A stretch of 64,000 bases of DNA from a virus, in IMG/VR virus record IMGVR_UViG_3300050147_000032. One strand, written 5' to 3'. The position numbers and the translations under genes were made by a program. The notes beneath the pieces were generated by a model. That model made no database searches. It was not told where the DNA came from and saw only the letters and a program-made list of their open reading frames with translations. This document shows positions 233 through 57,110 of the stretch, in pieces (positions within the stretch are counted from its first letter, which is position 1; each line of letters starts with the position of its first letter).

Positions 233-1342
233 TCATTGCTTCGATTTGCTTTCTTCGTAAGCACGAAGCTTGTTGATATAGAAATTCAATTTGTATCCTG
301 CAATTTCTCTACCAATAAGTCCATCAGGAATTTCGATAGGTTCAAATGCAAGTTCTTCAAAGATGTAATGAAATTGCCGACGTTCGATATCCGAAAGATT
401 ACAATCAATCAAATCCAGAAGATCTTTACGCTGTTCTACATTCTTTGTATGAAAAACTTTGTACTTGATGCAGAAATCAATCACATCAGTGTACGGGAAC
501 TTGAATCTTTCCATCGATTTACGAGCGCACCCAAGCCACTTCACGTTACTAGAAGCATTGCATTTATCAAAATTTCGACCGAGTCTATCAATAGACACAG
601 ACGCAATTATAACATCAACAGAAACATCTCTACCAATTGATTTGATATAATTTAGCGTATTCTTGATTTCAACAACATCCCATTCTCTAATCAAAACGCC
701 AAATACATCACCAATGAAATCGCAACGAAGAAAAGCATCAAAATCAAGAAGAACCTCAAAGAAGCGATATGCATAAGGTTCCTTCATAGCACGATTGATT
801 TCTTTCCAGAAACGATTAGAATCAATTGTATCAAGTTCTCCGGAAAGAACAATTTCTTTGCATAGTTCGACTGTTTCAGGTGCAATCTTGAAATCGTAAC
901 GAGCAGCGAATCGAGCAATACGAAGAACACGCATCGGATCTTCTTTGAAAGCATCGCTCACATGACGAAGGATACCGTTTTCGATATCAGACATCCCACC
1001 GAATGGGTCGATGATTTGATTATCATCACCAAGAGCCATTGCATTGATGGTCAGATCTCGTCGTTGGAGGTCCTGCTCAAGAGTTACGTCTTCTGTCTGA
1101 ACTTCAAATCCATTATATCCAATCCCAGTCTTCTTTTCTCGACGAGCAAGAGCATATTCTCCATTGAGGTCTGGATGCATATAGACAGGAAATGTAACAC
1201 CGACTTGATCATATCCGTTCTCGATCATCCATTCTGGATTTGCTCCAACAATGACATAATCCATATCTTTGGGATCAATGCCCATCGCCATGTCACGAAC
1301 AGCGCCGCCAACGAGATAAAATTCTGGATCAATGTGTTTCAT
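233..1342 (-). CDS. cca: CCA-adding enzyme (tRNA nucleotidyltransferase)
   Basis: Motifs YLVGGAVRD, PKDMDYV, EYALARREKK, DLQRRDLTINAMA, IDPFGG, EDPMRVLRIARFAAR are typical of class II CCA enzymes. Confidence 0.95.
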   Translation of the reverse strand: MKHIDPEFYLVGGAVRDMAMGIDPKDMDYVIVGANPEWMIENGYDQVGVTFPVYMHPDLNGEYALARREKKTGIGYNGFEVQTEDVTLEQDLQRRDLTINAMALGDDNQIIDPFGGMSDIENGILRHVSDAFKEDPMRVLRIARFAARYDFKIAPETVELCKEIVLSGELDTIDSNRFWKEINRAMKEPYAYRFFEVLLDFDAFLRCDFIGDVFGVLIREWDVVEIKNTLNYIKSIGRDVSVDVIIASVSIDRLGRNFDKCNASSNVKWLGCARKSMERFKFPYTDVIDFCIKYKVFHTKNVEQRKDLLDLIDCNLSDIERRQFHYIFEELAFEPIEIPDGLIGREIAGYKLNFYINKLRAYEESKSKQ

Positions 1343-1586
1343 AAAGAACTTTCTATGTCTTCAATAGATAGATTATACCATCACAGAAATAAACAATCAA
1401 CATCACCGCATGAAATGACGATTCATTTTCTTAATGAAAGATGATGCAATAAAAATCAATCCGATGAAAACGCCGAATATGATTCCAATCAAAAAAGATA
1501 ACATAATTTTCCTTACTTTAAGAGTAGTGTATAAATGCAAATCACAAGAACTAAAACAGAAATGGTCACGATAAAAATCAAATCCA

Positions 1587-2210
1587 TCATAGAATTTCCT
1601 CTCGTTTCAATTTTTCAATCAGCTTCCGACGAACAACCTTCTTGAACCCAGGATTGACTTGATTCACAAGAGGCATCATATCATGTCGAATAAGATTTCG
1701 TGTGAATTTCCGATCTTCGTTTGTTGGATCTTCAAACCATTGTACACCGATCTTCTGAAGGAAGTCAATACAATCTTGCTTCGTGTTCAAAAGAAACGGA
1801 CGAATGCAATTGTCACGTTGATATGGAATCAGATGACCTTCTCCGCATCGAATTGTGTAAAACAGAAATCCTTCTGCAACATCATCAAGTGTATGTCCCA
1901 GAAGAACGGTTCCATTCAGAGAACTTAGAAAAGCATAGCGCTTCTCTCGATAGAACTCTTTAGGTGACTTGCAATTTGGCTTCACTTCATGATTACTCAT
2001 CATGGTGAATTTGAAATTGTGTTCGATTATATGATTCATGAAGAAATGATGTTCATCTTTTTGTACATCATCTCCATGACCGAAGTATGCGATTTCTGGA
2101 TCTAGTCCTTGTGACCGAGCATAATGCAGAAGAGCCAAAGAATCAGCTCCTCCTGAACAAGCCACAAAGATTTTCCCAAGAGGAATATCACGTATGAATT
2201 TCAGATTCAT
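1587..2210 (-). CDS. tilS: tRNA(Ile)-lysidine synthetase, N-terminal catalytic domain only
   Basis: PP-loop ACSGGADS, LLGHTLDDVAEGFL, IRPFL, WFEDPTNED..TRNLIRH. Confidence 0.9.
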   Translation of the reverse strand: MNLKFIRDIPLGKIFVACSGGADSLALLHYARSQGLDPEIAYFGHGDDVQKDEHHFFMNHIIEHNFKFTMMSNHEVKPNCKSPKEFYREKRYAFLSSLNGTVLLGHTLDDVAEGFLFYTIRCGEGHLIPYQRDNCIRPFLLNTKQDCIDFLQKIGVQWFEDPTNEDRKFTRNLIRHDMMPLVNQVNPGFKKVVRRKLIEKLKREEIL

Positions 2211-2572
2211 ACGAACTTGCCATTCAACGAAACTCGAATTCCTGGTTCGATGCCAGCTGCCACGACGATACGATCAGTTTCATAACGGATAAGCACATTT
2301 CCGGCTACATGAACTCCATCATTATACATATCAACAGCATCTTTCAAAGAAAGATCAAGCCAGCATCGGAGTGTTTTAACGCCACTAAGCTTATATCCAG
2401 CCGGAATATGAAATTCCAGTATGTTGTTCTGAGTGATTCGACGCAACTTCAACAAACCAGACAGAAAATCAGTCGTACAATCTTCAATCTTCAAGTTAGA
2501 AAGAGCGTCATGCAAAGCACATGCTTCTTGCTTAGTCAAAGTGTTCATAATGTTCTCTCCAGTGTGTTTCAA
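2207..2572 (-). CDS. Hypothetical protein with a ribosomal L7/L12 C-terminal-like motif
   Basis: KLSGVKTLRCWLDLSLKDAVDM resembles the bL12 CTD pattern KI.VIK.VR..TGLGLKEAKDLV; judged by eye only. Confidence 0.35.
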   Translation of the reverse strand: MKHTGENIMNTLTKQEACALHDALSNLKIEDCTTDFLSGLLKLRRITQNNILEFHIPAGYKLSGVKTLRCWLDLSLKDAVDMYNDGVHVAGNVLIRYETDRIVVAAGIEPGIRVSLNGKFV

Positions 2573-2611
2573 TAAATCAATTATACAAAAACTTCTATGA
2601 AAAGTAAAGAC

Positions 2612-3736
2612 TTATTCGGCATTCTTCTGGAGATCGTTGAAGCCAAATTCTTTGTATTTGCGCTTCATGAAATCCTTATAATCATTGCTTCGACCGATGT
2701 AAAGATTCATCACCAAACCAAAAAGCAAGTCATTGATATCTGCCTTCATCTTGATAGCAAAGTCCTTACGAACAAGATGTTTGTTATCTTCGTATGCTTT
2801 TTCTACAGTATAGACAACATGATTGTAAAGAGTCGATACCTTCTCTTGCATATCATCGATTGTTTTCATTGCAAGAGCATCAGTAGCAAACATCGAACGC
2901 AGATCGTCAACACCTTCATCCAAGATACATTCATAAAGTCGACGAGGATTATTAATCGAATCCTTTGCATGATGCAGACTGATATATTTGTCAGTCTTGA
3001 TCTTCACTCGTTGACCATTTTTCATCACAAAGATGAAACCTTCGATATCATCGAGCATCGAAGGGACTTGCTCGATGAATTCCTTATGAGACAAACCGGA
3101 TTGCATGTTAACTAGTGCGTTCATCCATTCAGAAAACCACAAATCGATGTATCCTTTAAGATTCCAGTCAACTTGAATAACGTCAATAGAATTAAGAACA
3201 ATCAGACGTGGTTCCAAGTAGCCTAATACGATGCGATTCCAAGGAGCAACCCATTCCAAATTGACCGTATTACCGTGAACTTCGGCTGATTTAAGTTTCT
3301 TTTTCAAATCAGCATTTTCTGGTTGATCGAGCCACTTCATTGCATCAATAGCTTGCTCAGAGAACAGAGAACCTTTGCTCTTCAATCGAAGTTCACCGTT
3401 ATGCATGTAAGTCGACATCAATGAGCCATCAGACTTAACTTCAATCCAATCAATCTCATTCAGATCAAGATTCATCGTCATTGGATTCTCATTGATGTTG
3501 AAGAACTTTGGCATAGGCAAAGATGCCAAACGCACACAGTCGCCGTCCTTCGTAACTTCAAACATCGTACCACGACACCACAAAGCACCCGGCAACATGA
3601 AATCGGTATAAGTTGCCAGCCGATAGTTGAAGATCCAGTAGATCTTATCATCCAGCAAGAATTCTTGCTTATAGAAAGCTTCGGTTTCTTTCGTCAGCTT
3701 AACGAGTTGGTCAAACAATTCAATCTGCTTATTCAT
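2612..3736 (-). CDS. rnlA: RNA ligase 1 (T4 Rnl1/gp63-like)
   Basis: IFNYRLATY, CRGTMFE, MPKFFNINEN, motif I EVKSDGSL, EGFIF, KIKTDKY. Start moved to the ATG at 3736 behind a GGAG RBS. Confidence 0.92.
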   Translation of the reverse strand: MNKQIELFDQLVKLTKETEAFYKQEFLLDDKIYWIFNYRLATYTDFMLPGALWCRGTMFEVTKDGDCVRLASLPMPKFFNINENPMTMNLDLNEIDWIEVKSDGSLMSTYMHNGELRLKSKGSLFSEQAIDAMKWLDQPENADLKKKLKSAEVHGNTVNLEWVAPWNRIVLGYLEPRLIVLNSIDVIQVDWNLKGYIDLWFSEWMNALVNMQSGLSHKEFIEQVPSMLDDIEGFIFVMKNGQRVKIKTDKYISLHHAKDSINNPRRLYECILDEGVDDLRSMFATDALAMKTIDDMQEKVSTLYNHVVYTVEKAYEDNKHLVRKDFAIKMKADINDLLFGLVMNLYIGRSNDYKDFMKRKYKEFGFNDLQKNAE

Positions 3737-3769
3737 AACAATCTCCGTTATCACAATAAAGTGATTATA
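3734..3769 (-). promoter_or_regulatory. 36-bp promoter/leader/RBS cassette, copy 1
   Basis: On the minus strand TATAATCACTTTATTGTGATAACGGAGATTGTTATG; identical to 4809-4844. Confidence 0.8.
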
Positions 3770-3788
3770 AATGGATTTCTTAAAGAAG

Positions 3789-4085
3789 TCAATCTTCTTC
3801 GAAAATTTCAATCAATTCAGACGCTCGTTTCTTCGAGAATTCTTCTTCAATCCATCGATCTTGCTGTTTGATAAAGCTTGTATACTCATCTGCGAAAACG
3901 AAAATTGGAGTATCATTCGTCATCCAGTTATAATGAGCAAAGATCTTACCATAAAGAAGCAGAGAAGAATTTTCCGACAAAATCACTTCTGAAACGACAT
4001 GATTAGGAATACGAAGTACATCATTGAGTTGATGTAGGATACGTCCCAGAGAACGACCAGAATTTGCATATTGATAGTAGCTCAT
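3789..4085 (-). CDS. Hypothetical protein
   Basis: 98-aa ORF co-oriented with neighbouring genes. Confidence 0.6.
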   Translation of the reverse strand: MSYYQYANSGRSLGRILHQLNDVLRIPNHVVSEVILSENSSLLLYGKIFAHYNWMTNDTPIFVFADEYTSFIKQQDRWIEEEFSKKRASELIEIFEED

Positions 4086-15259: not shown

Positions 15260-15349
15260 GGAAGCGTGGCCGAGTGGTTTAAGGCTCTGGTCTTGAAAAC
15301 CAGCGTTCTCGAAAGAGGACCGTGAGTTCGAATCTCACCGCTTCCTCCA
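15260..15349 (+). tRNA. tRNA-Ser(UGA)
   Basis: GGAAGCG/CGCTTCC acceptor, loop CTTGAAA, long variable arm, CCA. Confidence 0.95.
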
Positions 15350-15355
15350 GAATGT

Positions 15356-15431
15356 TGGGGATTAGCTCAGTTGGTAGAGCAGTAGATTTTGATTCTACGT
15401 GTCATTGGTTCGAATCCAATATCCCTTGCCA
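15356..15431 (+). tRNA. tRNA-Gln(UUG)
   Basis: GTAGA-TTTTGAT-TCTAC anticodon arm, TTCGAAT T-loop, G73, CCA. Confidence 0.95.
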
Positions 15432-15436
15432 ATAAT

Positions 15437-15543
15437 GCGTCGTTAGCTCAGTTGGTAGAGCATCGGACTTACATCAAGTGCAGAGAAATACTGCACTTTA
15501 GTTAATCCGCAGGTCGCTGGTTCAAGTCCAGCACGACGCACCA
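15437..15543 (+). tRNA. tRNA-Lys(UUU)-like gene with a 31-nt insertion in the anticodon loop
   Basis: 107 nt minus 31 gives a canonical 76 nt. Body closely resembles enterobacterial tRNA-Lys. Removing 15471-15501 gives loop CT-TTT-AA. Confidence 0.8.
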
Positions 15544-15563
15544 ATTCAAAAAGAAAGATTATC

Positions 15564-15974
15564 ATGACAGAACTTGTTATCGTTCGTGGAATTCCTGGCT
15601 CTGGTAAGAGCACATATGCCAAGACTCTGGGCTATCTGAATTACGAAGCAGATCAATATTTTATTGATCCAGAAGGAAATTATCTTTTTGATGCAACTAA
15701 GCTTTATCAAGCTCATCGTTGGTGTCAGGAAAAGACTCGATCTGCTTTGAGCGATGGTCTTTCTGTTGTTGTGAGCAATACTTTCACAACTCGCAAAGAA
15801 ATGAAAGACTATCTTGAAATGGCGTATGAACTGCATATTCCGGTTCGCGTTGTCAAGGTTCTTGGGAATTTTCAGAATGTGCACGGTGTCCCAGAAGAAG
15901 CATTGGAACGTATGCGCAATCGTTGGCAAGACGTCGAAGGCGAATCAGTAGTCGACAATCGGATTATGATTTGA
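15564..15974 (+). CDS. P-loop kinase (polynucleotide-kinase-like, AAA_33 type)
   Basis: VIVRGIPGSGKST, EADQYF, VVVSNTF, NVHGVP. Confidence 0.85.
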   Translation: MTELVIVRGIPGSGKSTYAKTLGYLNYEADQYFIDPEGNYLFDATKLYQAHRWCQEKTRSALSDGLSVVVSNTFTTRKEMKDYLEMAYELHIPVRVVKVLGNFQNVHGVPEEALERMRNRWQDVEGESVVDNRIMI

Positions 15975-15975
15975 T

Positions 15976-16548
15976 ATGGCAAATATTTTCTTAATTTCAG
16001 ATCAACATTTTGGTCACAAGAATATCTTAAATTTCAAGCGTCGAGATGGGATCACGCCACTACGTTTGTTTGATTCGTCCGAAGAAATGGATGAACACAT
16101 GGTAGATTGTCATAATAAGGTCGTGAAGCCAAATGACAAAATCTACATGCTTGGTGATCTTGCGATGAACAAGAAATTTCTTCCTATTCTGGATCGTTTG
16201 AATGGTGAAAAGATTTTGATCAAAGGAAATCATGATCAAGATTCTTTGGCTGTATATGCAAAGTATTTCAAAGATGTTCGAGCATCACATCAACTTGCTG
16301 GTCATATCTTGACTCACATCCCAATTCATTCAAATTCTCTGAGTCGTTGGAAGAAGAATCTACATGGCCATCTACATGCAGATGTCGTTGGTGATCTTGA
16401 TACAGATGGTATTTGGCAACCAGATCATCGGTATGTCTGTCTCTCTGTCGAGCATACCAATTATTTTCCGATTGCACTCGAAGACATTGATACGTTTGCT
16501 AATGAACAGCACGATAAGGCTATACTTTCAACAAAGACTGTTGTATAA
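15976..16548 (+). CDS. Calcineurin-like metallophosphoesterase
   Basis: ISDQHFGH, LGDL, KGNHD, THIP, LHGHLH. Confidence 0.88.
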   Translation: MANIFLISDQHFGHKNILNFKRRDGITPLRLFDSSEEMDEHMVDCHNKVVKPNDKIYMLGDLAMNKKFLPILDRLNGEKILIKGNHDQDSLAVYAKYFKDVRASHQLAGHILTHIPIHSNSLSRWKKNLHGHLHADVVGDLDTDGIWQPDHRYVCLSVEHTNYFPIALEDIDTFANEQHDKAILSTKTVV

Positions 16549-17188
16549 TTGATTTATTGAAACTTAGGAGATTGATATGAAGCGAGTTGATTTTAAGAAG
16601 CCTTTGGTTTGCTCTAATGATGCATATGAAGTAATCGCCGTGTTGAATGTGAATTATTCAAATAGCATGTTTAAGCATTGTTGCCACATCAGGGATACGC
16701 GATCTGGCGAAGAGTTTACTCCATCTGTGAATGTATATGGAGAGATTTCGTCTGGTACTCCTCTTCATGGCGCGTTTGCAATTTGCAATCCAGAACCTGT
16801 TGTTATCAAGAAAATTTATACGCCTGTGTTGGCAAGTGGGTATGCCGCACCTTTCTGCTATGGTTCTTTTGAAGAAGCTATTGCAGTTAATCTGGTGAGT
16901 GAAACGATTGCACTTTTGCTCAGTAAGTATTATGACAATGGGAATGTAACAGTTGAATTGATCACTGATTTGACTGTTGGTCAATAAACATGATACAGAT
17001 CTTCGTCTTCAACGAAGATGCTATAAAATCTATGTTTAGTCGTGAACTTGGATTTCCTATAGAAAATATCAAACTGATTCCTGTTTATGCATACCAAGAA
17101 GATTTAGTTGATTGTCCTCAAGCAGCTTTACGTGGTAGGCATTTCGTTGGATATCATGTAGAAGCAGAATCTTAATTTGATTCTTACA

Positions 17189-17277
17189 GGGCGGGTAGCC
17201 GAATTGGTCTAGGCATCAGACTTAAAATCTGACTGAAGGTAACTTCACTGTGGGTTCGAGTCCCATCCCGCCCACCA
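17189..17277 (+). tRNA. tRNA-Leu(UAA)
   Basis: GGGCGGG/CCCGCCC, TCAGA-CTTAAAA-TCTGA, long variable arm, CCA. Confidence 0.95.
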
Positions 17278-17293
17278 TTCAAAGGAAGAATAA

Positions 17294-17695
17294 ATGAACA
17301 GTTCCACTATAACAATCTCAGAAGCAGAAGTATACAGAAAAAGCATGGCTTGTCTGAAAATATTGCATGCAGAACGAGTAACGCTAAAAAGAGAATTCTT
17401 AGATCAAGGGATTGCTCTTATCGAATCCCTACGGAATAAACCAAATCGTAGTTTCTTTTATTCAAAACTTCCAGATTATACAACTGACGAAAATGTAAAG
17501 AAATGGATGTATAAGAATGACATGCACGAATGTGCATATTATTGGTGGCGCGAAGAGGAATCGTTTCGTAGATTGATAGGTGCTATATCAGATCTTCCTA
17601 GAGATTCGACGAAAACAATGCAGCTATCAACAGAAGACGCTAATTTATTGAATACATGGATGAAAAAGGATCACAATGACACATCTAAAAGTTGA
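17294..17695 (+). CDS. Hypothetical protein
   Basis: 133-aa ORF with RBS. Confidence 0.65.
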   Translation: MNSSTITISEAEVYRKSMACLKILHAERVTLKREFLDQGIALIESLRNKPNRSFFYSKLPDYTTDENVKKWMYKNDMHECAYYWWREEESFRRLIGAISDLPRDSTKTMQLSTEDANLLNTWMKKDHNDTSKS

Positions 17696-18044
17696 ATCGT
17701 CCGATCGATCGCTTACTTTGAAAATTGATATCTTCGATTTGATCCACGAGAATCTAGATCCAGATCAACATGTCGAATTCGTCGAATCTCTGTCTTGTTC
17801 TGATAAAGTAATCGATCATGTCATGGAACAGATCTTTGATGGATATACATATAACGGATTTCGTGGAAATTTGTCCAGTAATCCAACATCAACTTACACT
17901 GCGCTTGATCGAGCGCGTAATCGCATTATCCAGCTTGCTGATAAAGAAGCGCAGGATAAAATCAAAGAGTTGTCAGATGCATATGATAAGTTACAAATTC
18001 GGTACAATGATTTGACCGAAAAGATGTACAAAACGGTTTATTGA
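17676..18044 (+). CDS. Hypothetical protein
   Basis: 122-aa ORF overlapping the upstream gene. Confidence 0.65.
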   Translation: MTHLKVESSDRSLTLKIDIFDLIHENLDPDQHVEFVESLSCSDKVIDHVMEQIFDGYTYNGFRGNLSSNPTSTYTALDRARNRIIQLADKEAQDKIKELSDAYDKLQIRYNDLTEKMYKTVY

Positions 18045-18080
18045 TGTTATACTTGATTTATTGAAACTTAGGAGATCGAT

Positions 18081-18275
18081 ATGAAGAAGCTTTTTATTGT
18101 TTGCGCTGTAACTTTTGCTTTGACTGGTTGCGGTAAGTTTGCTCAGTTGACGGCTCATTACACTGGCCAAGCTTCTGAAACATGTCATGATGGTATTGTG
18201 TATTTGCAGTGGACATCTGGCGCTACTGTAAAGATCGATAGCCATACGATGTTGCCAGAAAAGTGCCCTAAGTAA
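18081..18275 (+). CDS. Small lipoprotein
   Basis: Signal peptide with lipobox LTGC. Confidence 0.7.
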   Translation: MKKLFIVCAVTFALTGCGKFAQLTAHYTGQASETCHDGIVYLQWTSGATVKIDSHTMLPEKCPK

Positions 18276-18282
18276 ATCATAT

Positions 18283-18361: not shown

Positions 18362-18368
18362 TATTTTA

Positions 18369-18438: not shown

Positions 18439-18440
18439 GC

Positions 18441-18627: not shown

Positions 18628-18633
18628 TTCGTT

Positions 18634-18719: not shown

Positions 18720-18726
18720 ATTTATA

Positions 18727-43715: not shown

Positions 43716-44133
43716 GAAGATGATACAATAGAAACACATTGAACATGGAGATTGTTATGGCAAAGAATTTTGAAACTCTTGAAGTTGGCAAGTCTTACAA
43801 AAATGGTGCTGGCCTGATCGTTAAAATTATTAAATTCGAAATTGAATACAACGGCGATGAATGGCCTTATTGTGGCGATGATTTATCATTCTATAGAAAA
43901 GATGGTTTTTATGACAATGAAAACCCATCATCAAGAGATCTTGTCGAACTGATTGAAGATAATCTAGTCTCGAACGAAACATTGTTCTTGATTGAGCAAA
44001 ACAATACACTTGTCTTGGTGAAAGATCTTCCGATTGGAAAGTCTATTAAGGTTTTTCAAGTAAATGCAACTCCTCGAGATCTTGATACTGCTTTCAATGT
44101 TTATCAAGCTATAAACTTCACTTGGATCACGCG

Positions 44134-45408
44134 ATGATCAAAATCGAATCAACAAATCCAAAGTTTTCTTGGATTCTCAGGAAAAATCCTGAGACACAAC
44201 GAACAAAGAATGAGCCATTCTCAAAAGCATTGCGTAAAGGAATGTCGTATGGATGGTTCACAACGGATCAACAATTCAATCTTTTGTTCATCGATTCGAA
44301 GACAGAGACATCCTTCAATACGATTGGCGACTTCGAATATCTCGATCGGACACGCTACTGTTCGCCATATCTTCCGATTGCATTGATTGCTAATCTTTTG
44401 GCATCTGCACAAAAAGAAGATGTTCCGGAAGATACAGCTGACTTTCAAACGACTATCGAGTTCATTTCAGAATTTTCTGATCCAAAACTTGCACATCGAG
44501 TCATCAAAACAGTAACAGATGCAAAGATTGAGCTTGTGCAGATGCAACACCATCTATACAATGTGAAAATCAGTGCAACCGGAGTTCGAAAAGCTCTGAA
44601 TTGGACTATTGCTTTCTTGATCACACAAGCTGTCTTGGATCCGATGATTTACATTCCCATGGATGATGAATCTGTGAAGAAGTACATCAATGCACTGAAT
44701 ATCGTTGACGCGCCGTATTACATGCGTTACATCACAGCAAACAAATGCATTAAATCTCCTGTTGTTTTTGACACGGTGAAGAATTCTCTGGAAAACGAAA
44801 AGTTCCAGATGAACTTTGGAGATTCACAGAATCATCGTTGGCTTGCTATTGAGAAGCATTTGAATGGTGGCGCTGCTCTTTTTGATATTGGTTGCGGTGA
44901 GTTGTATTATACTCGTCGTCTATACAATCGATATGAGAAGTTCTTTGCTTTTGATGCAGATGAAAAGATCCAAGATCGAAATAAACATCTAGTAAATCTA
45001 CGTTGTCAAGATAAGATTGATCTACTGGGGAAATTTGATTCGACGTATGCAGATGGAAGTATCACAGATAAAGATGATGTTCTATTGACAGAAGTGTTGG
45101 AACACATGCCCAAGGAAACTGCTGTGGAACTACTGGATCAGGTTCTACGTGGTGATTTCCGTCGAGTTGTTGTCACTGTACCTAATGTTGATTTTAATCG
45201 ATTTTACGGCCTCTACGGCGATGATAAACGACATCCAGATCATCATTACGAACCGACTCAAACAGAATTCGAAACTTGGATGAAAAATGCAGCATCAAAA
45301 GTTGGATGTGGTGTTGAATTCTTCAATGTTGGAGATGGAGTAATTGTAAATGGACAATCGATCTATGCTTCACTTGGAGCAACTTTTAAAAAGGAAAAGA
45401 ATGAGTAA
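44134..45408 (+). CDS. hen1: Hen1 RNA 2'-O-methyltransferase (bacterial type: N-terminal ligase-activating domain plus C-terminal MTase)
   Basis: FDIGCGE, LTEVLEH, TVPNVDFN, RHPDHHYE.T..EF..W, F..VG are Hen1 MTase motifs. Confidence 0.85.
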   Translation: MIKIESTNPKFSWILRKNPETQRTKNEPFSKALRKGMSYGWFTTDQQFNLLFIDSKTETSFNTIGDFEYLDRTRYCSPYLPIALIANLLASAQKEDVPEDTADFQTTIEFISEFSDPKLAHRVIKTVTDAKIELVQMQHHLYNVKISATGVRKALNWTIAFLITQAVLDPMIYIPMDDESVKKYINALNIVDAPYYMRYITANKCIKSPVVFDTVKNSLENEKFQMNFGDSQNHRWLAIEKHLNGGAALFDIGCGELYYTRRLYNRYEKFFAFDADEKIQDRNKHLVNLRCQDKIDLLGKFDSTYADGSITDKDDVLLTEVLEHMPKETAVELLDQVLRGDFRRVVVTVPNVDFNRFYGLYGDDKRHPDHHYEPTQTEFETWMKNAASKVGCGVEFFNVGDGVIVNGQSIYASLGATFKKEKNE

Positions 45409-51265: not shown

Positions 51266-53632
51266 ATGAAACAACATACAATCGTTCTACTCGTTGGTCC
51301 TTCTTGTTGCGGAAAGACAACGTTTGCCAAGAAGATCCAAGCAGCAATCGTCGAAGAAAATCTGAAATGTGTGATCATTTCATCAGATGACATTCGACGT
51401 GATCTGCTTTGCGACAATGAGATTCATAAGCTCGATGCATCGATGTCTTCTGTATCAGCCGAAGCCCATCATATCCTGAAGACAAAGGTTGATTTTCACT
51501 CGAAGTTTCCTATCAATACGGATGTCATCATCGTTGATACGACTGGATTGTCTGCTCATTTCCGTGAAGAAATGATCGAGATTGCAAAGAAGAATCATTA
51601 CAACATTGATATGTTCGTGTTTGATTATCCTCGTTCTGATCTCGAAGGATTTGTTGCTTTGAATCACGGCGACATGTATGTTACTGGTCATCAAATGAAA
51701 CGCCTCCGCGAAGAGGTTATGCCCAATCTAAATCGCAAGGCATATGGAATGGTTCAAATTTTCAAGAAGCCAGAAGATGCTGTTGCTTGGATTCCTACTA
51801 TCGAGAATCGTGATGTTGTCATTCAAGCAAATGAAGATGATAAGATCGTCGTCATCGGAGATGTGCATGAATGTGTCGATGAGCTAGTTGCTCTGTTTGA
51901 TAAAATTCCAACTAACGTCAATCATATCGCTCTTCTAGGGGATATCGTTGATAAAGCTGAAGACACAGAACGTCTGATCAACTTGATTTTTGATATGACA
52001 AAGAGTCAGAAGAATTACGATTTCTTCTTGATTCGAGGAAATCATGAACGATATGTTTACAAGCGACTGAAGGGGATTCTTGCTCCCAACGAAAAGCTTG
52101 ACAATGAATTCTTCCAATCATTCAAAGTGCTTTCTGTAGATGAAAATCTTCGAGAAAAGTTCTTCTTCCTGTATGAAAATGTGATGGTGGATCATCTGAA
52201 GTTTATTCGTGGACGAGAAAAAGCTATTATTCTGACTCATGCTCCTTGCTCCAATGTTCATCTGGGAAAGCATGACAGCAAGTCATCTGGTAAACAGATC
52301 AACTTCTACTTCACTTCTCGTGATCAAGAAAAGATGCTCGATGAACTGAAATTCATCGAAGATGAAGCAGATAGCAATCATCCTTGGCATCTGTTTGGTC
52401 ATGTTGCTCATGATGGTCGTCAACCTAAGATGATCAAGAACAAGATCTTCATGGATACTGGCTGTGTTCATGGCGGGAAACTGTCTGCCGCAGTATTCAA
52501 TGGTCGTCATGTTGATTTCATCACAGTTGATTCCAAACGTGAAGTTCATGGTTTGATTTCTCTGGAAAAGAAAGAAACGAAACTGGAGAAGATTGTTCGT
52601 TCTGATATCAATCTTTCCGAAGAAGATCAACGATCGGTAGATAAAATTGCAAAGAGCGGAGCGAAGTTCATTTCCGGGACAATGGCTCCTGCTCCTTCAA
52701 AAGATATGGATATCGAGTCTCTGGAAGCTGCTGTTTCATATTTCAAGGAACGAGTGACAGATGTTGTAATTCAACCGAAATATATGGGATCTCGTTGTCA
52801 ATTTTATCTCTACAAGGATCGAGCAAAGAACTTTGCAACTTCCAGGAATGGATTCAAAATCAAGATTGATAAACTTCAAGAATACATGGATGTGTATCAA
52901 ACATGGATCGAGAAGTCTATCAAATTTGAAGATGAGTTGATTTTGGATGGAGAACTTCTTCCTTGGTCAGCACTCGGTAAAGGTCTGATTGATGGTGCTT
53001 TTGGTCAATATCAAAGCGCTATCAGTTGGACTCTAGATAACCTGAGTCTCGATGAAACTTTTGCTGGATTTGATATTTGCAAGAAACTGAACATCACAGA
53101 GCAACAAAACAATCTTGTTCAGTTTCAGGAACAGCTTGCTCTATATGGCCAAGATCGTCATCTGGAATATAAAGCATTCGACATCCTTTCTATTGATGGG
53201 AAGATTGTTGCTGGTAAGCAAAATGATACGAGCTTCTTTGTGTTGAATTCAGATAAGACTTTGAAGATTAATCTGAACGAACCAGATGCACTTTTCCGTA
53301 TTCAGAATTTCTTTGATGTGCTTGTTTTTGATAAGGGATTTGAAGGTATTGTGATCAAGCCTGTTTCTTATGATTCGAGCAAGAATTGTGTTCCTTACAT
53401 GAAAGTCCGCAACAAAGAATATCTGCGTCTTGTGTATGGTTTCAACTATGCATCGCGCTTGTCCGAACTATGCAAGCAAAAGAATACTCGTGGAAAGATG
53501 AACTTGTCGATTGATGAATTTGAACTTGGTCAGGCTATTCTTGCTGAGAAGGATGATGTAAAGCGTAAGCATCTGATTTCTGCGATGTTCGGTAAGATCG
53601 CTAAAGAACGCACTTTGGATCCACGTCTGTGA
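51266..53632 (+). CDS. pnkp: Polynucleotide kinase-phosphatase Pnkp (kinase, phosphoesterase and ligase domains)
   Basis: GPSCCGKT, SSDDIR; GDVHE, GDIVD, RGNHE, FGH, DTGCVHGGKLSA; ISGTMAP, KYMGSR, DGELLPWS, EGIVIKP, KVRNKEYLRLVYG; ends DPRL. Confidence 0.9.
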   Translation: MKQHTIVLLVGPSCCGKTTFAKKIQAAIVEENLKCVIISSDDIRRDLLCDNEIHKLDASMSSVSAEAHHILKTKVDFHSKFPINTDVIIVDTTGLSAHFREEMIEIAKKNHYNIDMFVFDYPRSDLEGFVALNHGDMYVTGHQMKRLREEVMPNLNRKAYGMVQIFKKPEDAVAWIPTIENRDVVIQANEDDKIVVIGDVHECVDELVALFDKIPTNVNHIALLGDIVDKAEDTERLINLIFDMTKSQKNYDFFLIRGNHERYVYKRLKGILAPNEKLDNEFFQSFKVLSVDENLREKFFFLYENVMVDHLKFIRGREKAIILTHAPCSNVHLGKHDSKSSGKQINFYFTSRDQEKMLDELKFIEDEADSNHPWHLFGHVAHDGRQPKMIKNKIFMDTGCVHGGKLSAAVFNGRHVDFITVDSKREVHGLISLEKKETKLEKIVRSDINLSEEDQRSVDKIAKSGAKFISGTMAPAPSKDMDIESLEAAVSYFKERVTDVVIQPKYMGSRCQFYLYKDRAKNFATSRNGFKIKIDKLQEYMDVYQTWIEKSIKFEDELILDGELLPWSALGKGLIDGAFGQYQSAISWTLDNLSLDETFAGFDICKKLNITEQQNNLVQFQEQLALYGQDRHLEYKAFDILSIDGKIVAGKQNDTSFFVLNSDKTLKINLNEPDALFRIQNFFDVLVFDKGFEGIVIKPVSYDSSKNCVPYMKVRNKEYLRLVYGFNYASRLSELCKQKNTRGKMNLSIDEFELGQAILAEKDDVKRKHLISAMFGKIAKERTLDPRL

Positions 53633-55466: not shown

Positions 55467-55495
55467 AAGGGCTTCGAAAGAAGCCTTTACTTTTT
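55467..55495 (+). terminator. Rho-independent terminator
   Basis: GGCTTC-GAAA-GAAGCC hairpin followed by TTTACTTTTT. Confidence 0.8.
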
Positions 55496-56380
55496 GTTGA
55501 ATTGATGTCATAATAGAGATGTTGTGAAAATGATTGTAAACAAACCTTACTTTTGGAGATTATTATGAAGAATCAACGTGGTTATGCTACCGAATTGATT
55601 GTCGTTACCATTTGGCTTGCTTTTGTTGGTGGTTGGATTGCAAACATCTATAAGCTTGCTAGTTCGAATTTTGAATTTGTTCATATGACACTGTTTCAAC
55701 TTCTTCGAATCATTGGTATCTGTGTTGCTCCTCTTGGTGCTGTTCTTGGTTTCATGTAAGGATTTATATCATGCTTCCAATCTTTTCCGTTATCACATGT
55801 TTGAGTTCTGGAATTCTTTTTGATACAAAATATCACAATACAGCAATTGCTTTTGCTGTAATAACAGGAGTTACTTTGTTCTGGATGGCTCTTTGTTATT
55901 TGAACAATGAAAAATTTGACGGTACTCCTAAAAATCGATAATTGAAGGAAATATCATGCAATATTGGAAAGTATATCTAGCAAAAGCTTTTGAAGAAGCA
56001 AACATCAATAAAAACGACAGTCTTCCTATTGTTCGAGAGTCCTACCGAGCAATGACAAAATCTGGAGATGTTCTTAATACAGATGTGAAAACTGAAGCAG
56101 ATAAGTTTGCAGGCAGAGCAGGGTTTGTTGCTACCATCAAAAATGAAGAAGACAAAAAGGCACTTCAAGAATATTGGGATGTTCGTACACATGCTGAAGT
56201 TAAAGCGCAAATTGCTTGGTATGAAGATCTTCGGGAAGAAAACAAACATTATAACGAAGGTATTTTCAATCTGATCTATAGTCGAGCATATGACAGAGGC
56301 CATAGTTCTGGTTATGATGCTGTTGCTATTGAATTTGACGATATCGCAAATTTTGCCTATGACATCCTGGCTGCAGCAAA

Positions 56381-56755
56381 ATGAAAATTCTTATTTTATT
56401 TGCATTGTTCGTTACAAAGCATTTTATTGTTGATTTTGTTCTTCAGAAGCCATATCAATGGATGAACAAAGGAAATTATGGACATCCAGGTGGAATTCTT
56501 CATGCTGTCCTTCATGGCATCGGAACATGGGCTATCTTGAATTCTTCGCACATTCCGGTTGATCTTATCATAGAGTTGTGCTGTATGGATATCATTGTCC
56601 ATTATCACATCGACTGGGCAAAGATGAACATCAACAAGAAAATGGGATGGGCATCGAACACGCACGAAGAATTTTGGATTTTGACTGGATTTGATCAATT
56701 CTTGCATTACATGACATACATCTTGATTTTGTATTTTGTCATTGACAAGATTTGA
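56381..56755 (+). CDS. DUF3307-like membrane protein
   Basis: KHFIVDFVLQ, HAVLHG, HYHIDWAK, GFDQFLH. Confidence 0.8.
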   Translation: MKILILFALFVTKHFIVDFVLQKPYQWMNKGNYGHPGGILHAVLHGIGTWAILNSSHIPVDLIIELCCMDIIVHYHIDWAKMNINKKMGWASNTHEEFWILTGFDQFLHYMTYILILYFVIDKI

Positions 56756-56792
56756 CATTGTTTGTATAATCTGTTCATAGAGGAGATTAACT

Positions 56793-57110
56793 ATGACGTA
56801 TAAACTTTTTATCGATGACGAAAGATTTCCAGTTGATGATTCTTGGGTAATTGTTCGAACTTCTGAAGAAGCGATCCAACACGTCAAAGAAAACGGAATG
56901 CCAATCTACATCTCGTTCGATCACGATTTAGGTGGAGATGATACATCAGTGAAATTCATTTGGTGGATGATTGATTTATTTCTAGATGGCAACATTGAGA
57001 TATCAAAAGATTTCGATTTCTATGTTCATTCTCAAAATCCAATTGGTGCTGAAAATATTCGGAAGCTTATGCAAGGCTTTTTAATGCATTATTGTAAGGA
57101 AATATCATGA
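56793..57110 (+). CDS. Cyclic-phosphate-processing receiver domain protein
   Basis: KLFIDDERFP, VRTSEEAI, ISFDHDLG, HSQNPIG. Confidence 0.75.
   Translation: MTYKLFIDDERFPVDDSWVIVRTSEEAIQHVKENGMPIYISFDHDLGGDDTSVKFIWWMIDLFLDGNIEISKDFDFYVHSQNPIGAENIRKLMQGFLMHYCKEIS

What the first reader, a model, noticed from the sequence alone, without database searches (positions are those of the whole stretch)
233..57110. Candidate integrated tRNA build, repair and decoy system
Seen in sequence: CCA-adding enzyme, TilS, Rnl1, Pnkp, Hen1, a Pth2-like hydrolase, a stand-alone P-loop kinase next to a metallophosphoesterase (15564-16548), an HD protein and a cyclic-phosphate receiver co-occur with about 20 tRNAs. 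Several of those tRNAs lack an encoded CCA (Trp, Pro, Ser-GCU, mini-Phe), two are discontinuous in the anticodon loop, and there are at least ten non-canonical RNAs. No canonical Arg, Asp, His, Val or Lys tRNA was found in this window. Inference: one coordinated strategy to keep translation running when host defences destroy tRNA and rRNA.
Basis: inference. Interest (0 to 1): 0.75.

Follow-up and report, generated by a model that had tools for sequence, protein, structure and literature searches.

The report
Phage tRNA supply, repair, mimic RNAs
A divergent T4-like phage from leaf litter carries about 20 tRNA genes, two RNA-break repair pathways, tRNA-finishing enzymes and a widespread, undescribed family of about 60-nt tRNA-like RNAs; these look like parallel modules for keeping translation running, not one integrated system.

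Summary
All named genes are present with intact catalytic motifs, except that the HD protein rests on a motif only. There are 18 ARAGORN tRNAs, and at least 13 further tRNA-like RNAs.

The enzyme and tRNA repertoire is already described for jumbo and T4-like phages (XacN1; Iyer 2021). The genes lie in at least four loci with several promoters. They vary independently among the nearest relatives and among 20 other phages that carry the same RNA family.

New here:
- A roughly 60-nt RNA family: a covarying 7-bp terminal helix, UUUCAGCAA, then a hairpin that in many copies mimics an anticodon arm. It has 5 copies here, 2 upstream on the contig, 48 matches in 29 IMG/VR contigs and 2 unannotated copies in cultured Aeromonas phage Aeh1. 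Most lie in tRNA arrays (21 of 29 contigs).
- Long copies that carry a permuted tRNA-like body, as Y RNAs do.
- A tRNA-Lys/Asn with a 31-nt hairpin at the wobble position. One jumbo-phage counterpart exists, and it also encodes Rnl1.
- Pth2-like and HD-like genes, each with TAG at codon 4, downstream of a tRNA(CUA).
- Hen1 and Pnkp kept about 6 kb apart in two clade members.

Decoy and splicing roles are untested. The scan's earlier notes all concern this same window.

The parts
233..1342 (-). Class II CCA-adding enzyme (head and neck only, no HD domain)
   Evidence: PF01743 at 74.6 bits and PF12627; GGAVRD, RRD and EDPMR motifs; NF008137 aligned over positions 3-221 of 409, below the full-length cut-off. 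The same CCA...Rnl1 order on one strand is seen in Aeromonas phage Aeh1.
1587..2210 (-). TilS-like lysidine synthetase, N-terminal catalytic domain only (207 aa)
   Evidence: PF01171 at 84 bits; TIGR02432 at 96.8 against a cut-off of 93.6; SGGADS PP-loop.
2612..3811 (-). T4 RnlA-family RNA ligase 1
   Evidence: PF09511 and PF20819; TIGR02308 at 289.5 against 242; KSDG nucleotidyl-lysine motif. The true start is probably downstream of the TTG.
15260..28167 (+). tRNA array. Called tRNAs: Ser-UGA, Gln, interrupted Lys/Asn, Leu-UAA, Trp, Ile-GAU, Tyr, Ser-GCU, Pro, CAU, Ala, CUA suppressor, Glu, Thr, 'Leu-CAG', Gly-UCC, Cys, CAU. Small ORFs and tRNA-like RNAs are interspersed.
   Evidence: ARAGORN and Rfam. 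Promoter-like sites scoring 11-12 of 12 lie at 13936, 14583, 18881, 24274, 24936 and 28028.
15437..15543 (+). tRNA with a Lys-like body (A73) and an Asn-like anticodon stem, interrupted by a 31-nt hairpin at nt 33-35
   Evidence: ARAGORN intron (35,31); Rfam tRNA at 62 bits. Removing 31 nt in one register gives UUU; in the neighbouring register it gives GUU. A counterpart tRNA-Asn (G73) with a 32-nt insert lies in a 349,660-nt phage contig.
15564..15974 (+). Stand-alone polynucleotide-kinase-like P-loop kinase
   Evidence: PF13671; PHROG 2071 and 505; GIPGSGKS.
15976..16548 (+). Metallophosphoesterase, adjacent to the kinase (1-nt gap between the ORFs)
   Evidence: PHROG 547 at E 2e-46; DxH, GD, GNHD and HGHLH motifs; no Pfam hit.
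19164..19219 (+). Scaffold RNA (model R1), short copy; 7-nt loop CUUUUAC
   Evidence: cmsearch at 54.6 bits; helix covariation; loop.
20011..20120 (+). About 110-nt tRNA-like RNA with a long acceptor-like stem, a T-arm and a CCA-like end
   Evidence: T-arm at 20093-20109 and fold. Not examined further.
20501..20577 (+). Amber suppressor tRNA(CUA), canonical cloverleaf, G73
   Evidence: ARAGORN; Rfam at 69 bits.
21217..21558 (+). Pth2-like peptidyl-tRNA hydrolase; Shine-Dalgarno plus ATG with TAG as codon 4
   Evidence: PF01981 at 29.1 bits when TAG is read through; sequence; genome-wide scan.
21561..22115 (+). HD-motif protein (PHROG 14850); GGAGG plus ATG with TAG as codon 4
   Evidence: No HD family hit. 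A remnant in L084 has TAG where this protein has Gln.
22397..22548 (+). Scaffold RNA, long copy. Inside the scaffold helix lie, in order: a Leu-type variable arm, a T-arm, an acceptor stem closed by a 16-nt loop that holds ACCA, and a D-arm.
   Evidence: cmsearch at 31 bits; sequence. Five analogous long copies exist: two upstream on the contig, two in L083 and one in L086.
22642..22719 (+). tRNA-like RNA that ARAGORN calls Leu-CAG: 11-bp hairpin, G33, no Rfam support
24611..24674 (+). Scaffold RNA, short copy
   Evidence: 66.3 bits.
24975..25156 (+). tRNA-Gly(UCC) and tRNA-Cys(GCA), each 86 nt with a long variable region and U73
   Evidence: The Gly form is 91% identical to tRNA-Gly of the Yersinia, Erwinia and Serratia jumbo phages, and an 85-nt form is present in L083.
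25283..25335 (+). Stretch resembling 23S rRNA helices 43-44 (the GTPase-associated centre)
   Evidence: Rfam LSU model positions 1094-1147, 16.7 bits, E 0.003 in a 311-nt search. Weak.
25568..25725 (+). Two tRNA-like RNAs: 25568-25639 (loop GCUGACA) and the 'mini-Phe' at 25659-25725 (8-bp acceptor stem, GAA loop, T-arm, no D-arm, no CCA)
   Evidence: Rfam tRNA at 36.3 bits; sequence.
25748..25808 (+). Scaffold RNA, short copy; loop CCGUUAA
   Evidence: 65.7 bits.
28173..28234 (+). Scaffold RNA, short copy, 6 nt after the tRNA(CAU) at 28093-28167
   Evidence: 69.7 bits.
44122..45408 (+). Hen1 RNA 3'-terminal 2'-O-methyltransferase
   Evidence: PF22032 at 149 bits. The best PDB match is Hen1 of the Capnocytophaga Pnkp1-Rnl-Hen1 complex (4XRP_C, E 2e-31). 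DIGCGE, EVLEH and HPDHH motifs are present.
51266..53632 (+). Pnkp: kinase, 2',3'-phosphatase and ligase in one chain
   Evidence: PF13671, PF00149 and PF16542; GPSCCGKT, GDVH, GNHE and KYMGS motifs. The ligase part is closest to Rnl of 4XRU (E 6e-29).
56381..57110 (+). DUF3307 protein and cyclic-phosphate-processing receiver (cREC)
   Evidence: PF11750 at 39.8 bits; PF20274 at 79.4 bits.

Best explanation
The window belongs to a divergent T4-like phage. Its DNA polymerase is at most 38% identical to cultured phages, the contig is 97 kb and about 44% complete, and it comes from leaf litter. It carries a modular, separately inherited toolkit that keeps phage translation running. There is no evidence for one integrated machine.

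Module 1, tRNA supply: about 20 tRNAs, mostly with U34, that match the phage's preferred A-ending codons. They can also stand in for host tRNAs that are depleted or cut.

Module 2, tRNA finishing: a CCA-adding enzyme would complete the three or more tRNAs that lack an encoded CCA and repair trimmed 3' ends. A one-domain TilS would convert one of the two CAU tRNAs to Ile-decoding.

Module 3, break repair by two routes. The first is T4-type healing and sealing, using the stand-alone kinase, the metallophosphoesterase and Rnl1. The second is a bacterial-type Pnkp with Hen1, which seals the break and 2'-O-methylates the junction so that it cannot be cut again.

Module 4, clean-up: a Pth2-like hydrolase, an HD-motif protein and cREC. 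The first two are probably made only when the phage tRNA(CUA) reads through a TAG at codon 4.

Module 5, small RNAs inside the tRNA array. These belong to a widespread family. Its 7-bp terminal helix followed by a conserved G resembles an acceptor stem with a discriminator base. In many copies the central 4-5 bp stem with a 7-nt loop of the form CU-NNN-AA resembles an anticodon arm. Both side arms are replaced by conserved linkers, UUUCAGCAA on the 5' side and AAAAAG on the 3' side. I read them as tRNA mimics that bind tRNA-recognising proteins, either host anticodon nucleases or tRNA enzymes.

Shown: the genes, motifs, RNA structures, their conservation and their distribution. Inferred: all enzymatic roles in vivo, the amber gating, and what the mimic RNAs do.
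For: Genes and motifs.

T4-like backbone: gp15, gp46/47, gp44/62, RegA, gp45 and gp43.

Codon match: GCA 0.41, GAA 0.83, GGA 0.42, CCA 0.49, CAA 0.72, ACA 0.47.

Known precedent: XacN1 combines 56 tRNAs with a CCA enzyme, PNKP, Hen1 and Pth (PMC5852040). Iyer et al. describe tRNAs, RNA ligases, kinases, phosphoesterases, cRec, CCA enzymes and Ter genes together as a counter-defence repertoire (PMC7824862).

Modularity:
- The parts lie in separate loci with several 11-12/12 promoter-like sites.
- L083 has 6 tRNAs and 6 scaffold RNAs, but no kinase, phosphoesterase, Pth2, HD-like or Ter genes between RegA and the dUTPase gene.
- L086 has an Rnl2-type ligase after the polymerase gene.
- L210 keeps Hen1 and Pnkp about 6.8 kb apart but has no cREC at the syntenic place.
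- Of 20 other scaffold-bearing records, 2 have Rnl1 and 4 have a CCA enzyme.

Hen1 and Pnkp as a pair: Hen1 occurs in only 5 of 50,697 phage records, each time next to a Pnkp-ligase homologue.

Amber gating: in 97 kb, only two cases have a ribosome-binding site, an ATG, a TAG within 12 codons and then a long open frame. They are adjacent, both have the TAG at codon 4, and both lie 0.6-1 kb downstream of the tRNA(CUA). TAG ends only about 10 of 170 ORFs.

Scaffold RNA family:
- 11 copies from 3 phages are 100% paired in the terminal helix, with 4 of 7 pairs showing compensatory changes; 0 of 500 shuffles reach this.
- 48 further matches in 29 contigs are 99.7% paired, with 6 of 7 pairs compensatory. 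Shifting the 3' partner by 1-3 columns drops pairing to 32-46%.
- In 21 of the 29 loci tRNA genes, often large arrays, lie within the fetched stretch; where checked the matches share the strand and lie 3-8 nt from the neighbouring tRNA.
- Among the 32 of 44 copies where a stem of 4 bp or more with a 7-nt loop was found, 15 loops read like canonical anticodon loops (CUUUUAA, CUUGUAA, CUUCUAA, CUGAAAA, CUGCAAA, CUGUAAC and similar).
- Two unannotated copies lie ahead of the tRNA array in Aeromonas phage Aeh1.
Against: Some links between modules exist, so 'independent' is not absolute.
- The suppressor tRNA appears coupled to two enzyme genes.
- The only other phage found with the same kind of interrupted tRNA also encodes Rnl1.
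- The CCA-less tRNAs and the scaffold RNAs (no encoded CCA) fit the presence of a phage CCA enzyme.

Limits of the evidence:
- The relatives are fragments of 21-38 kb. Absences hold only for the syntenic intervals seen.
- Most scaffold-bearing records are under 70% complete.
- No RNA data exist for this phage, and the host is unknown.
- A third or more of the scaffold hairpins do not show a canonical U33/R37 loop.
- Binding to nucleases or tRNA enzymes is pure inference.
Confidence: 0.6

Rival explanations
1. One reading: one coordinated system. The phage builds its own tRNAs (some need splicing or CCA addition by phage enzymes), repairs cut ones, and expresses decoy RNAs, all as an integrated and co-selected island.
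For: - All parts lie within 57 kb, and the + strand parts are co-oriented.
- Two genes are amber-gated next to the suppressor tRNA.
- An interrupted tRNA co-occurs with Rnl1 in 2 of 2 phages.
- CCA-less tRNAs occur together with a CCA enzyme.
- The Hen1 and Pnkp arrangement is conserved.
Against: - The parts are interleaved with replication, nucleotide-metabolism and 7-deazaguanine genes.
- There are several promoters.
- Gene content differs between L083, L084/L210 and L086.
- Scaffold RNAs occur in phages without Rnl1 or a CCA enzyme, including a record that is 90% complete.
- A phage with CAGCAA-type tRNA inserts has no RNA ligase at 92% completeness.
Confidence: 0.12
2. The ordinary reading. 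The tRNAs only compensate for codon usage. The repair genes are generic accessories. The odd RNAs are decaying tRNA pseudogenes, spacers or processing signals with no function of their own.
For: - The tRNA set matches the preferred codons.
- The region behaves like a hyperplastic T4 region, with very different content in relatives.
- Several elements look degenerate, for example 'Leu-CAG' and the element at 25568.
- T4 itself has stable RNAs C and D of unknown function in its tRNA cluster.
Against: - Covariation in 55 distinct copies across more than 30 phages, conserved linkers and a conserved G after the helix are not expected of pseudogenes.
- Canonical anticodon-like loops recur.
- The insert in the interrupted tRNA has a structured counterpart at the same site in an unrelated jumbo phage.
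- A processing-signal role remains possible and is not excluded.
Confidence: 0.18
3. The RNA-maturation reading. The interrupted tRNA is a true intron-bearing gene, and the long scaffold copy is a true permuted gene. Their exons would be joined by the phage's own healing and sealing enzymes after cleavage by an unidentified or host nuclease. That would be tRNA splicing in a bacterial virus.
For: - Removing 31 nt restores a perfect cloverleaf.
- The counterpart in contig G001 restores tRNA-Asn(GUU), and that phage has Rnl1.
- The window's long copy has a 7-bp acceptor stem followed by ACCA.
- From my own knowledge, T4 Pnkp and Rnl1 can replace yeast tRNA ligase.
Against: - By inspection there is no bulge-helix-bulge motif at the junctions, and the insert is not at position 37/38.
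- The contig has no splicing endonuclease and no RtcB.
- The five other long copies have acceptor stems closed by 5-8 nt loops without CCA, and lack an anticodon loop. They cannot yield normal tRNAs.
- The loop rebuilt from the window copy would have A33.
Confidence: 0.1

Closest known systems
tRNA and RNA-repair repertoire of jumbo phages (Xanthomonas phage XacN1, PMC5852040; survey by Iyer et al. 2021, PMC7824862)
   Same: Many tRNAs together with a CCA-adding enzyme, Pnkp and Hen1, a peptidyl-tRNA hydrolase, Rnl-type ligases, kinases, phosphoesterases, cRec and Ter genes. All are interpreted as countering host attacks on translation.
   Different: Here the backbone is T4-like. Hen1 and Pnkp are about 6 kb apart, whereas they are adjacent in all five GenBank phages that have them. 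A T4-type Rnl1 route and a one-domain TilS are present as well. The structured RNAs are not part of those descriptions.
T4 Pnkp and Rnl1 repairing tRNA-Lys cut by PrrC (established knowledge)
   Same: An RnlA-family ligase passes its curated cut-off. A kinase and a phosphoesterase are available for end healing.
   Different: The kinase and phosphatase are separate proteins, and the phosphatase is a metallophosphoesterase, not a HAD enzyme. No host nuclease is known. The Lys-type tRNA of this phage is itself interrupted at the PrrC cleavage position.
Bacterial Pnkp1-Rnl-Hen1 and Pnkp-Hen1 repair complexes (PMC4411300; PDB 4XRU, 4XRP)
   Same: The ligase domain and Hen1 are most similar to these chains (E 6e-29 and 2e-31). 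The catalytic motifs are intact.
   Different: Kinase, phosphatase and an Rnl-like ligase are fused in one chain. The TIGR04075 and TIGR04074 equivalog cut-offs are not reached. The genes are not adjacent.
Bacterial and phage Y RNAs of the YrlA type (PMC4201824)
   Same: The long scaffold copies have the same connectivity. A stem formed by the 5' and 3' ends is followed by a variable arm, a T-arm, an acceptor-like stem-loop and a D-arm. M. smegmatis YrlA, which has a 7-bp acceptor stem, is cut by RNase P and receives CCA.
   Different: There is no Rfam YrlA match. The contig has no Ro60/TROVE gene. The GNCGAA motif is absent. The terminal helix and the UUUCAGCAA linker are specific to this family.
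T4 stable RNAs C and D (species 1 and 2) in the T4 tRNA cluster
   Same: Small stable RNAs of unknown function that sit in the phage's tRNA cluster. rnaC has a T-arm and a tRNA-like 3' end.
   Different: They do not match model R1; the best T4 score is 14 bits at E 0.08, inside an ORF. They are 119-139 nt long with a different architecture.
Armless mitochondrial tRNAs of nematodes (recalled from my own knowledge; not tested here)
   Same: An acceptor stem and an anticodon arm joined by short linkers in place of the D and T arms, about 45-60 nt in all.
   Different: Those are true decoders that work with specialised partners. Here the linkers are conserved in sequence, no CCA is encoded, many loops are not canonical, and decoding is unlikely in a bacterial host.
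Pseudo-ToxI of phage PhiTE, an RNA mimic that neutralises the ToxN nuclease (PMC3475682)
   Same: It is a precedent for a phage-encoded small RNA that works as a decoy against a host ribonuclease.
   Different: No sequence or family relation could be shown. Rfam gives no ToxI match on the tRNA insert. The resemblance I recalled is from memory only.

Membership tests
T4 RnlA-family RNA ligase 1 | Curated equivalog score, Rnl1 C-terminal domain, KxDG lysine | tested here: met
   TIGR02308 at 289.5 against 242.25; PF20819 at 65.9 bits; KSDG at residue 126.
TilS (tRNA-Ile lysidine synthetase) | PP-loop N-terminal catalytic domain | tested here: met
   TIGR02432 at 96.8 against 93.6; SGGADS.
TilS (tRNA-Ile lysidine synthetase) | C-terminal tRNA-binding domains of the full-length enzyme | tested here: not met
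   The protein is 207 aa. NF007942 scores 52.8 against 606 and aligns only to positions 18-216 of 439.
TilS (tRNA-Ile lysidine synthetase) | A CAU-anticodon tRNA-Ile2 substrate | tested here: inconclusive
   Two CAU tRNAs exist, at 19576-19652 and 28093-28167. Which of them, if either, is Ile2 cannot be told from sequence.
Class II CCA-adding enzyme | Head-domain motifs GGxVRD, DxD, RRD and EDxxR | tested here: met
   PF01743 at 74.6 bits; GGAVRD, DMD, RRDLTINA and EDPMR. CCA-adding versus A-adding or poly(A) activity cannot be decided from sequence.
Bacterial Pnkp | Kinase P-loop, binuclear phosphatase motifs and a ligase lysine in one chain | tested here: met
   GPSCCGKT; GDVH, GDIVDK and GNHE; KYMGS; PF16542 at 87 bits against 28.2.
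Bacterial Pnkp | Curated equivalog score (TIGR04075) | tested here: not met
   164.7 against 750; only positions 8-429 of 851 align.
Bacterial Hen1 | Hen1 N-terminal domain plus a methyltransferase with metal-binding His and Asp residues | tested here: met
   PF22032 at 149 bits; DIGCGE, EVLEH and HPDHH aligned to 4XRP_C and 3JWG.
Bacterial Hen1 | Gene adjacent to pnkp (operon) | tested here: not met
   The genes are 5.9 kb apart here and 6.8 kb apart in L210. They are adjacent in 5 of 5 GenBank phages.
PTH2 peptidyl-tRNA hydrolase | Pfam gathering score | tested here: met
   PF01981 at 29.1 against 23, but only positions 3-76 of 115 align.
HD phosphohydrolase | Match to an HD-domain family | tested here: not met
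   No Pfam or NCBIfam hit. Only an H...HD motif and PHROG 14850 of unknown function.
cREC receiver | Pfam gathering score and conserved Asp residues | tested here: met
   PF20274 at 79.4 against 27; DD and DHD present.
YrlA / Y RNA | Rfam RF02553 match | tested here: not met
   No hit at 22380-22560 even at E up to 10.
YrlA / Y RNA | Ro60 (TROVE) gene nearby | tested here: not met
   PF05731 is absent from the 97-kb contig. The contig is only about 44% complete, and the host was not examined.
YrlA / Y RNA | Permuted tRNA-like domain (T-arm, acceptor stem-loop, D-arm) on a stem formed by the two ends | tested here: met
   Six long copies were read by eye and folded.
Archaeal/eukaryal-type tRNA intron | Position 37/38, or a bulge-helix-bulge motif at the junctions | tested here: not met
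   The insert lies at nt 33-35 and no bulge-helix-bulge motif can be drawn. By contrast, most interrupted tRNAs in giant-virus contigs are at 37-39.
Archaeal/eukaryal-type tRNA intron | Splicing endonuclease or RtcB encoded | tested here: not met
   PF01974 and PF01139 are absent from the contig.
Canonical tRNA (for the scaffold RNAs) | Cloverleaf with D and T arms; Rfam or ARAGORN call | tested here: not met
   Neither tool calls the short copies. They keep only a 7-bp terminal helix and one hairpin.

The most novel reading that the evidence does not exclude
The roughly 60-nt scaffold RNAs are a new, widespread class of phage-encoded armless tRNA mimics. They present an acceptor-like helix and an anticodon arm (Lys-UUU, Thr-UGU, Arg-UCU, Phe, Cys, Tyr and others). 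Their proposed role is to soak up or misdirect host anticodon nucleases or other tRNA-recognising defence proteins. In the same phages, tRNAs interrupted at the wobble position would be matured, or kept uncleavable, with the help of phage Rnl1 and kinase/phosphatase. That would make RNA decoys a general arm of phage counter-defence, encoded inside tRNA arrays.
Probability: 0.25. Interest if true: 0.9.

Novelty: new variant of a known kind. Interest (0 to 1): 0.7.

Why it matters
The combination of tRNA supply and RNA repair is a known phage strategy, so the gene list alone is not new.

What matters is that the tRNA arrays of many large phages hold a conserved and strongly covarying small RNA. 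Rfam, the GenBank annotation of Aeh1 and the searched literature do not describe it. Here it sits beside rare repair enzymes, an interrupted tRNA and amber-gated genes.

Because copies exist in cultured Aeromonas phage Aeh1, the question of what phage tRNA-like RNAs do becomes testable at the bench. T4 RNAs C and D have posed that question for decades.

If the RNAs are nuclease decoys or processing platforms, they would add an RNA layer to phage counter-defence. They would also change how phage tRNA arrays are annotated.

Tried and rejected
- **Close relatives.** No near-identical DNA in GenBank phages; only tRNAs match. Pnkp peptide patterns found nothing in IMG/VR. IMG/VR polymerase relatives are at most 42% identical. 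Assembly loci could not be opened as whole records.
- **Expression.** No RNA holder was listed among 24 leaf-litter runs.
- **Ro60 idea.** The conserved 501-aa neighbour at 28238-29743 is not TROVE. It has a C-terminal ACP-like domain and weak vWA-like features.
- **Scaffold as a known RNA.** There are no Rfam hits. It is not an intrinsic terminator and does not coincide with promoter predictions. It does not match T4 rnaC or rnaD.
- **Stop-codon recoding.** Reading TAG through does not lengthen the longest ORFs.
- **ToxI.** The likeness of the tRNA insert to ToxI is a memory only. There is no Rfam hit, the sequence is not in the papers read, and the plasmid record is not held.
- **More interrupted tRNAs of this type.** A specific pattern found only one true case, L198.
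- **Not run.** Complex prediction for Pnkp with Hen1 was left out, because a pass would rest on likeness to 4XRU/4XRP. No structure predictions were run.

Full report
**What the window is**

The window is bases 19264-83263 of a 96,962-nt IMG/VR virus record, estimated to be 44% complete. The same sequence is held in 24 leaf-litter metagenome runs.

Its backbone is T4-like. It has gp15, gp46/gp47, the gp44/gp62 clamp loader, RegA, the gp45 clamp and gp43 polymerase. The polymerase is at most 38% identical to any GenBank phage. No phage record matches the DNA apart from single tRNAs.

Metagenome assemblies hold relatives whose polymerase is 67% (L083), 60% (L086) and 56% (L084/L210) identical.

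**Checking the observation**

- The CCA-adding enzyme, TilS N-domain, Rnl1, Pnkp, Hen1 and cREC all have family matches and intact catalytic motifs.
- The stand-alone kinase at 15564-15974 is polynucleotide-kinase-like.
- Its neighbour at 15976-16548 has no Pfam hit. It matches a phage phosphoesterase family at E 2e-46 and has the metallophosphoesterase motifs.
- The Pth2-like gene reaches the Pfam cut-off when read from the upstream ATG through a TAG.
- The HD protein is the weak item. It has only an H...HD motif and no family match.

ARAGORN finds 17 tRNAs plus one with a 31-nt insert, and Rfam agrees for 16 to 17 of them. Trp, Ser-GCU and Pro lack an encoded CCA. The window has no canonical Arg, Asp, His, Val, Lys or Asn tRNA. 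Arg-UCU and Leu-AAG lie just upstream on the contig.

Seven further perfect T-arms lie outside the called tRNAs. All are on the + strand between 18.5 and 25.7 kb.

**What is already known**

Xanthomonas phage XacN1 combines 56 tRNAs with a CCA enzyme, an adjacent PNKP and Hen1, and a peptidyl-tRNA hydrolase. Iyer and colleagues describe tRNAs, Rnl1/Rnl2/RtcB ligases, kinases, phosphoesterases, cRec, CCA enzymes, Pth and Ter genes as a jumbo-phage answer to host attacks on translation.

So the gene repertoire, and the idea behind it, are a known kind.

Hen1 is nevertheless rare. Only 5 of 50,697 phage records have it, each time next to a Pnkp-ligase homologue.

In this phage the two genes are 5.9 kb apart. 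The same split arrangement (Hen1, AAA protein, dCMP deaminase, DUF932, then Pnkp) is kept in L210. This supports a functional pair even though the genes are not in an operon.

Both proteins are most similar to the Capnocytophaga Pnkp1-Rnl-Hen1 complex. They fall below the curated equivalog cut-offs.

The CCA...Rnl1 order on one strand recurs in Aeromonas phage Aeh1.

**Is it one system?**

The parts lie in at least four places:
- 233-3811 on the minus strand;
- the tRNA region at 15.2-28.2 kb;
- Hen1 at 44 kb;
- Pnkp at 51 kb and cREC at 57 kb.

Replication genes, a 7-deazaguanine cluster and nucleotide-metabolism genes lie between them. Seven promoter-like sites scoring 11-12 of 12 lie on the + strand across 13.8-29.8 kb.

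The relatives differ in content.
- In L083 the interval from RegA to the dUTPase gene is about 3 kb. It holds six tRNAs and six scaffold RNAs. It has none of the kinase, phosphoesterase, Pth2, HD-like, glycosyltransferase or Ter genes.
- L086 has an Rnl2-type ligase after the polymerase gene.
- L210 has no cREC where this phage has one.

As far as fragments allow, that is what is seen.

**A real link: amber gating**

Both the Pth2-like gene and the HD-motif gene have a strong ribosome-binding site, an ATG, two codons and then TAG. After the TAG the frame stays open for 110 and 181 codons.

A scan of all six frames of the 97-kb contig finds only five cases with a ribosome-binding site, an ATG, a stop within 12 codons and then a long open frame. 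The only two with TAG are these adjacent genes, which lie 0.6-1 kb downstream of the tRNA(CUA). TAG ends only about 10 of 170 ORFs. Reading TAG through does not otherwise lengthen ORFs.

A remnant of the HD-motif gene in L084 has TAG where this protein has Gln.

**The scaffold RNA family**

Copies share a 7-bp terminal helix, a 5' linker UUUCAGCAA, a variable centre, a 3' linker ending AAAAAG, and a G after the helix.

The evidence for a real structured family is as follows.
- Across 11 short copies from three phages the helix is paired in all 76 cells. Four of seven pairs show compensatory changes, and no shuffle out of 500 matches this.
- A covariance model built on these copies also finds long copies in the window, two on the contig upstream (next to Leu-AAG and Arg-UCU), and others in L083 and L086. 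It finds none in more distant T4-like loci.
- A DNA pattern then found 29 IMG/VR contigs, many of 100-320 kb. The model finds 48 matches in them.
- In that independent set the helix is 99.7% paired, with six of seven pairs compensatory. Pairing falls to 32-46% when the 3' partner is shifted by 1-3 columns.
- In 21 of the 29 loci tRNA genes, often large arrays, lie within the fetched stretch. In the cases checked the matches share the tRNAs' strand and lie 3-8 nt from the flanking tRNAs, as if they occupied a tRNA slot.
- A 7-nt loop on a stem of at least 4 bp was found in 9 of the 11 clade copies, and on a stem of at least 3 bp in none of the rest. It was found in 32 of 44 distinct copies in the wider set. 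Of those 32, 15 read CU-NNN-A(A/C), like anticodon loops: for example Lys-UUU, Thr-UGU, Arg-UCU, Phe-GAA, Cys-GCA and Tyr-GUA. The others are not canonical.
- Two copies lie ahead of the tRNA array in cultured Aeromonas phage Aeh1, in a stretch with no annotation.
- Rfam has no match. T4 rnaC and rnaD do not fit the model. Full-text searches found no description.

I read the short form as an armless tRNA mimic. It has an acceptor-like helix with a discriminator-like G and an anticodon arm, and the D and T arms are replaced by conserved linkers.

**Long copies**

In six long copies the central hairpin is replaced by a variable arm, a T-arm, an acceptor-like stem closed by a loop, a D-arm and a short stem.

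This is the connectivity of YrlA-type Y RNAs. However, there is no Rfam YrlA match and no TROVE gene on the contig.

Only the window copy has ACCA in the closing loop. The other five have loops of 5-8 nt and no anticodon loop. I therefore do not read them as permuted genes for ordinary tRNAs.

**The interrupted tRNA**

The gene at 15437-15543 has a Lys-like acceptor stem, T-arm and A73. Its anticodon stem resembles that of tRNA-Asn. A 31-nt hairpin splits the anticodon. One excision register gives UUU and the neighbouring one gives GUU.

A broad pattern search found 119 or more interrupted class I tRNAs in IMG/VR. Many have eukaryote-style introns at 37-39, and a large share of those lie in giant-virus contigs.

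One 349,660-nt phage contig has a tRNA-Asn (G73) with a 32-nt hairpin at the same site, the same anticodon stem and the same flanks. That phage also encodes Rnl1 and Rnl2-type ligases, but no RtcB.

By inspection there is no bulge-helix-bulge motif. No splicing endonuclease or RtcB is encoded here. Splicing, decoy and pseudogene readings all stay open.

Several other phage tRNAs carry inserts made of a hairpin followed by ACAGCAA just before the anticodon. This echoes the scaffold linker.

**Other points**

- The tRNA set matches the phage's preferred A-ending codons. Codon compensation therefore remains a sufficient reason for the canonical tRNAs.
- tRNA-Gly(UCC) and tRNA-Cys(GCA) are 86 nt long with long variable regions, yet keep the U73 identity elements. 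The Gly form recurs in unrelated jumbo phages.
- The stretch at 25283-25335 resembles 23S helices 43-44, but weakly.

**Verdict**

The functions converge on tRNA integrity, and two sub-links are credible: Hen1 with Pnkp, and the suppressor tRNA with its two gated genes. A single integrated system is not supported by gene order, transcription signals or distribution. The decoy role is an inference.

The repertoire is a new variant of a known kind. The widespread scaffold RNA family is the most novel and most testable element.

Noticed in passing
NC_005260 (Aeromonas phage Aeh1) 111333-111402 and 111457-111518, minus strand; locus L252: Two copies of the scaffold RNA lie just ahead of the Aeh1 tRNA array, in a stretch with no annotated feature. 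A second cultured-type record of 225,268 nt (G026) also has two copies.
   Followed up: partly
L142, L147, L184, L126, L153, L118, L209, L112 (IMG/VR phage contigs): These contigs hold tRNAs with normal acceptor, D and T arms. Their anticodon arm is replaced by a short outer stem, a 7-bp hairpin, ACAGCAA and about 20 nt that contain an anticodon-like triplet. The CAGCAA motif is the same as in the scaffold RNAs.
   Followed up: partly
window 30504-30851: A 115-aa protein whose counterpart in the near-identical contig, and homologue in L084, carry a precomputed Acb2/Tad1-hairpin hit (weak in the former). It may be a sponge for cyclic-nucleotide defence signals.
   Followed up: no
window 35160-40503: A QueE-like radical SAM gene, QueD, FolE, three unknown ORFs and a glycosyltransferase form a tight 7-deazaguanine-type cluster with no QueC in view. 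The cluster is present in L083 and L086 but absent from L084.
   Followed up: partly
window 25875-29743 and 14639-15250: TerC, TerD and vWA-TerF-like genes are followed by a conserved 501-aa protein with vWA-like features and a C-terminal ACP-like domain. A second protein with a C-terminal ACP-like domain lies at 14639-15250. In three phages the 501-aa gene directly follows a scaffold RNA.
   Followed up: partly
window 25283-25335: This stretch aligns to positions 1094-1147 of the bacterial 23S model (the L11 / GTPase-associated centre) at 16.7 bits. The helix 43 part is well kept, and the rest diverges.
   Followed up: partly
window 24975-25156: tRNA-Gly(UCC) and tRNA-Cys(GCA) are each 86 nt with 14-15 nt variable regions, which is unusual for these class I tRNAs. 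The Gly form is about 91% identical to tRNA-Gly of the Yersinia, Erwinia and Serratia jumbo phages.
   Followed up: partly
L083 1084-2463: The gp44 clamp-loader gene of this relative carries an intein (459 aa against 318 aa here).
   Followed up: no
window 25171-25269: A short ORF for a 32-aa hydrophobic peptide lies between tRNA-Cys and the rRNA-like stretch.
   Followed up: no
   Followed up: no
L225 3711-4068 and L231 2019-2343: ARAGORN calls tmRNA-like genes with tag peptides ending in ALAA inside or near phage tRNA arrays that also carry scaffold RNAs.
   Followed up: no
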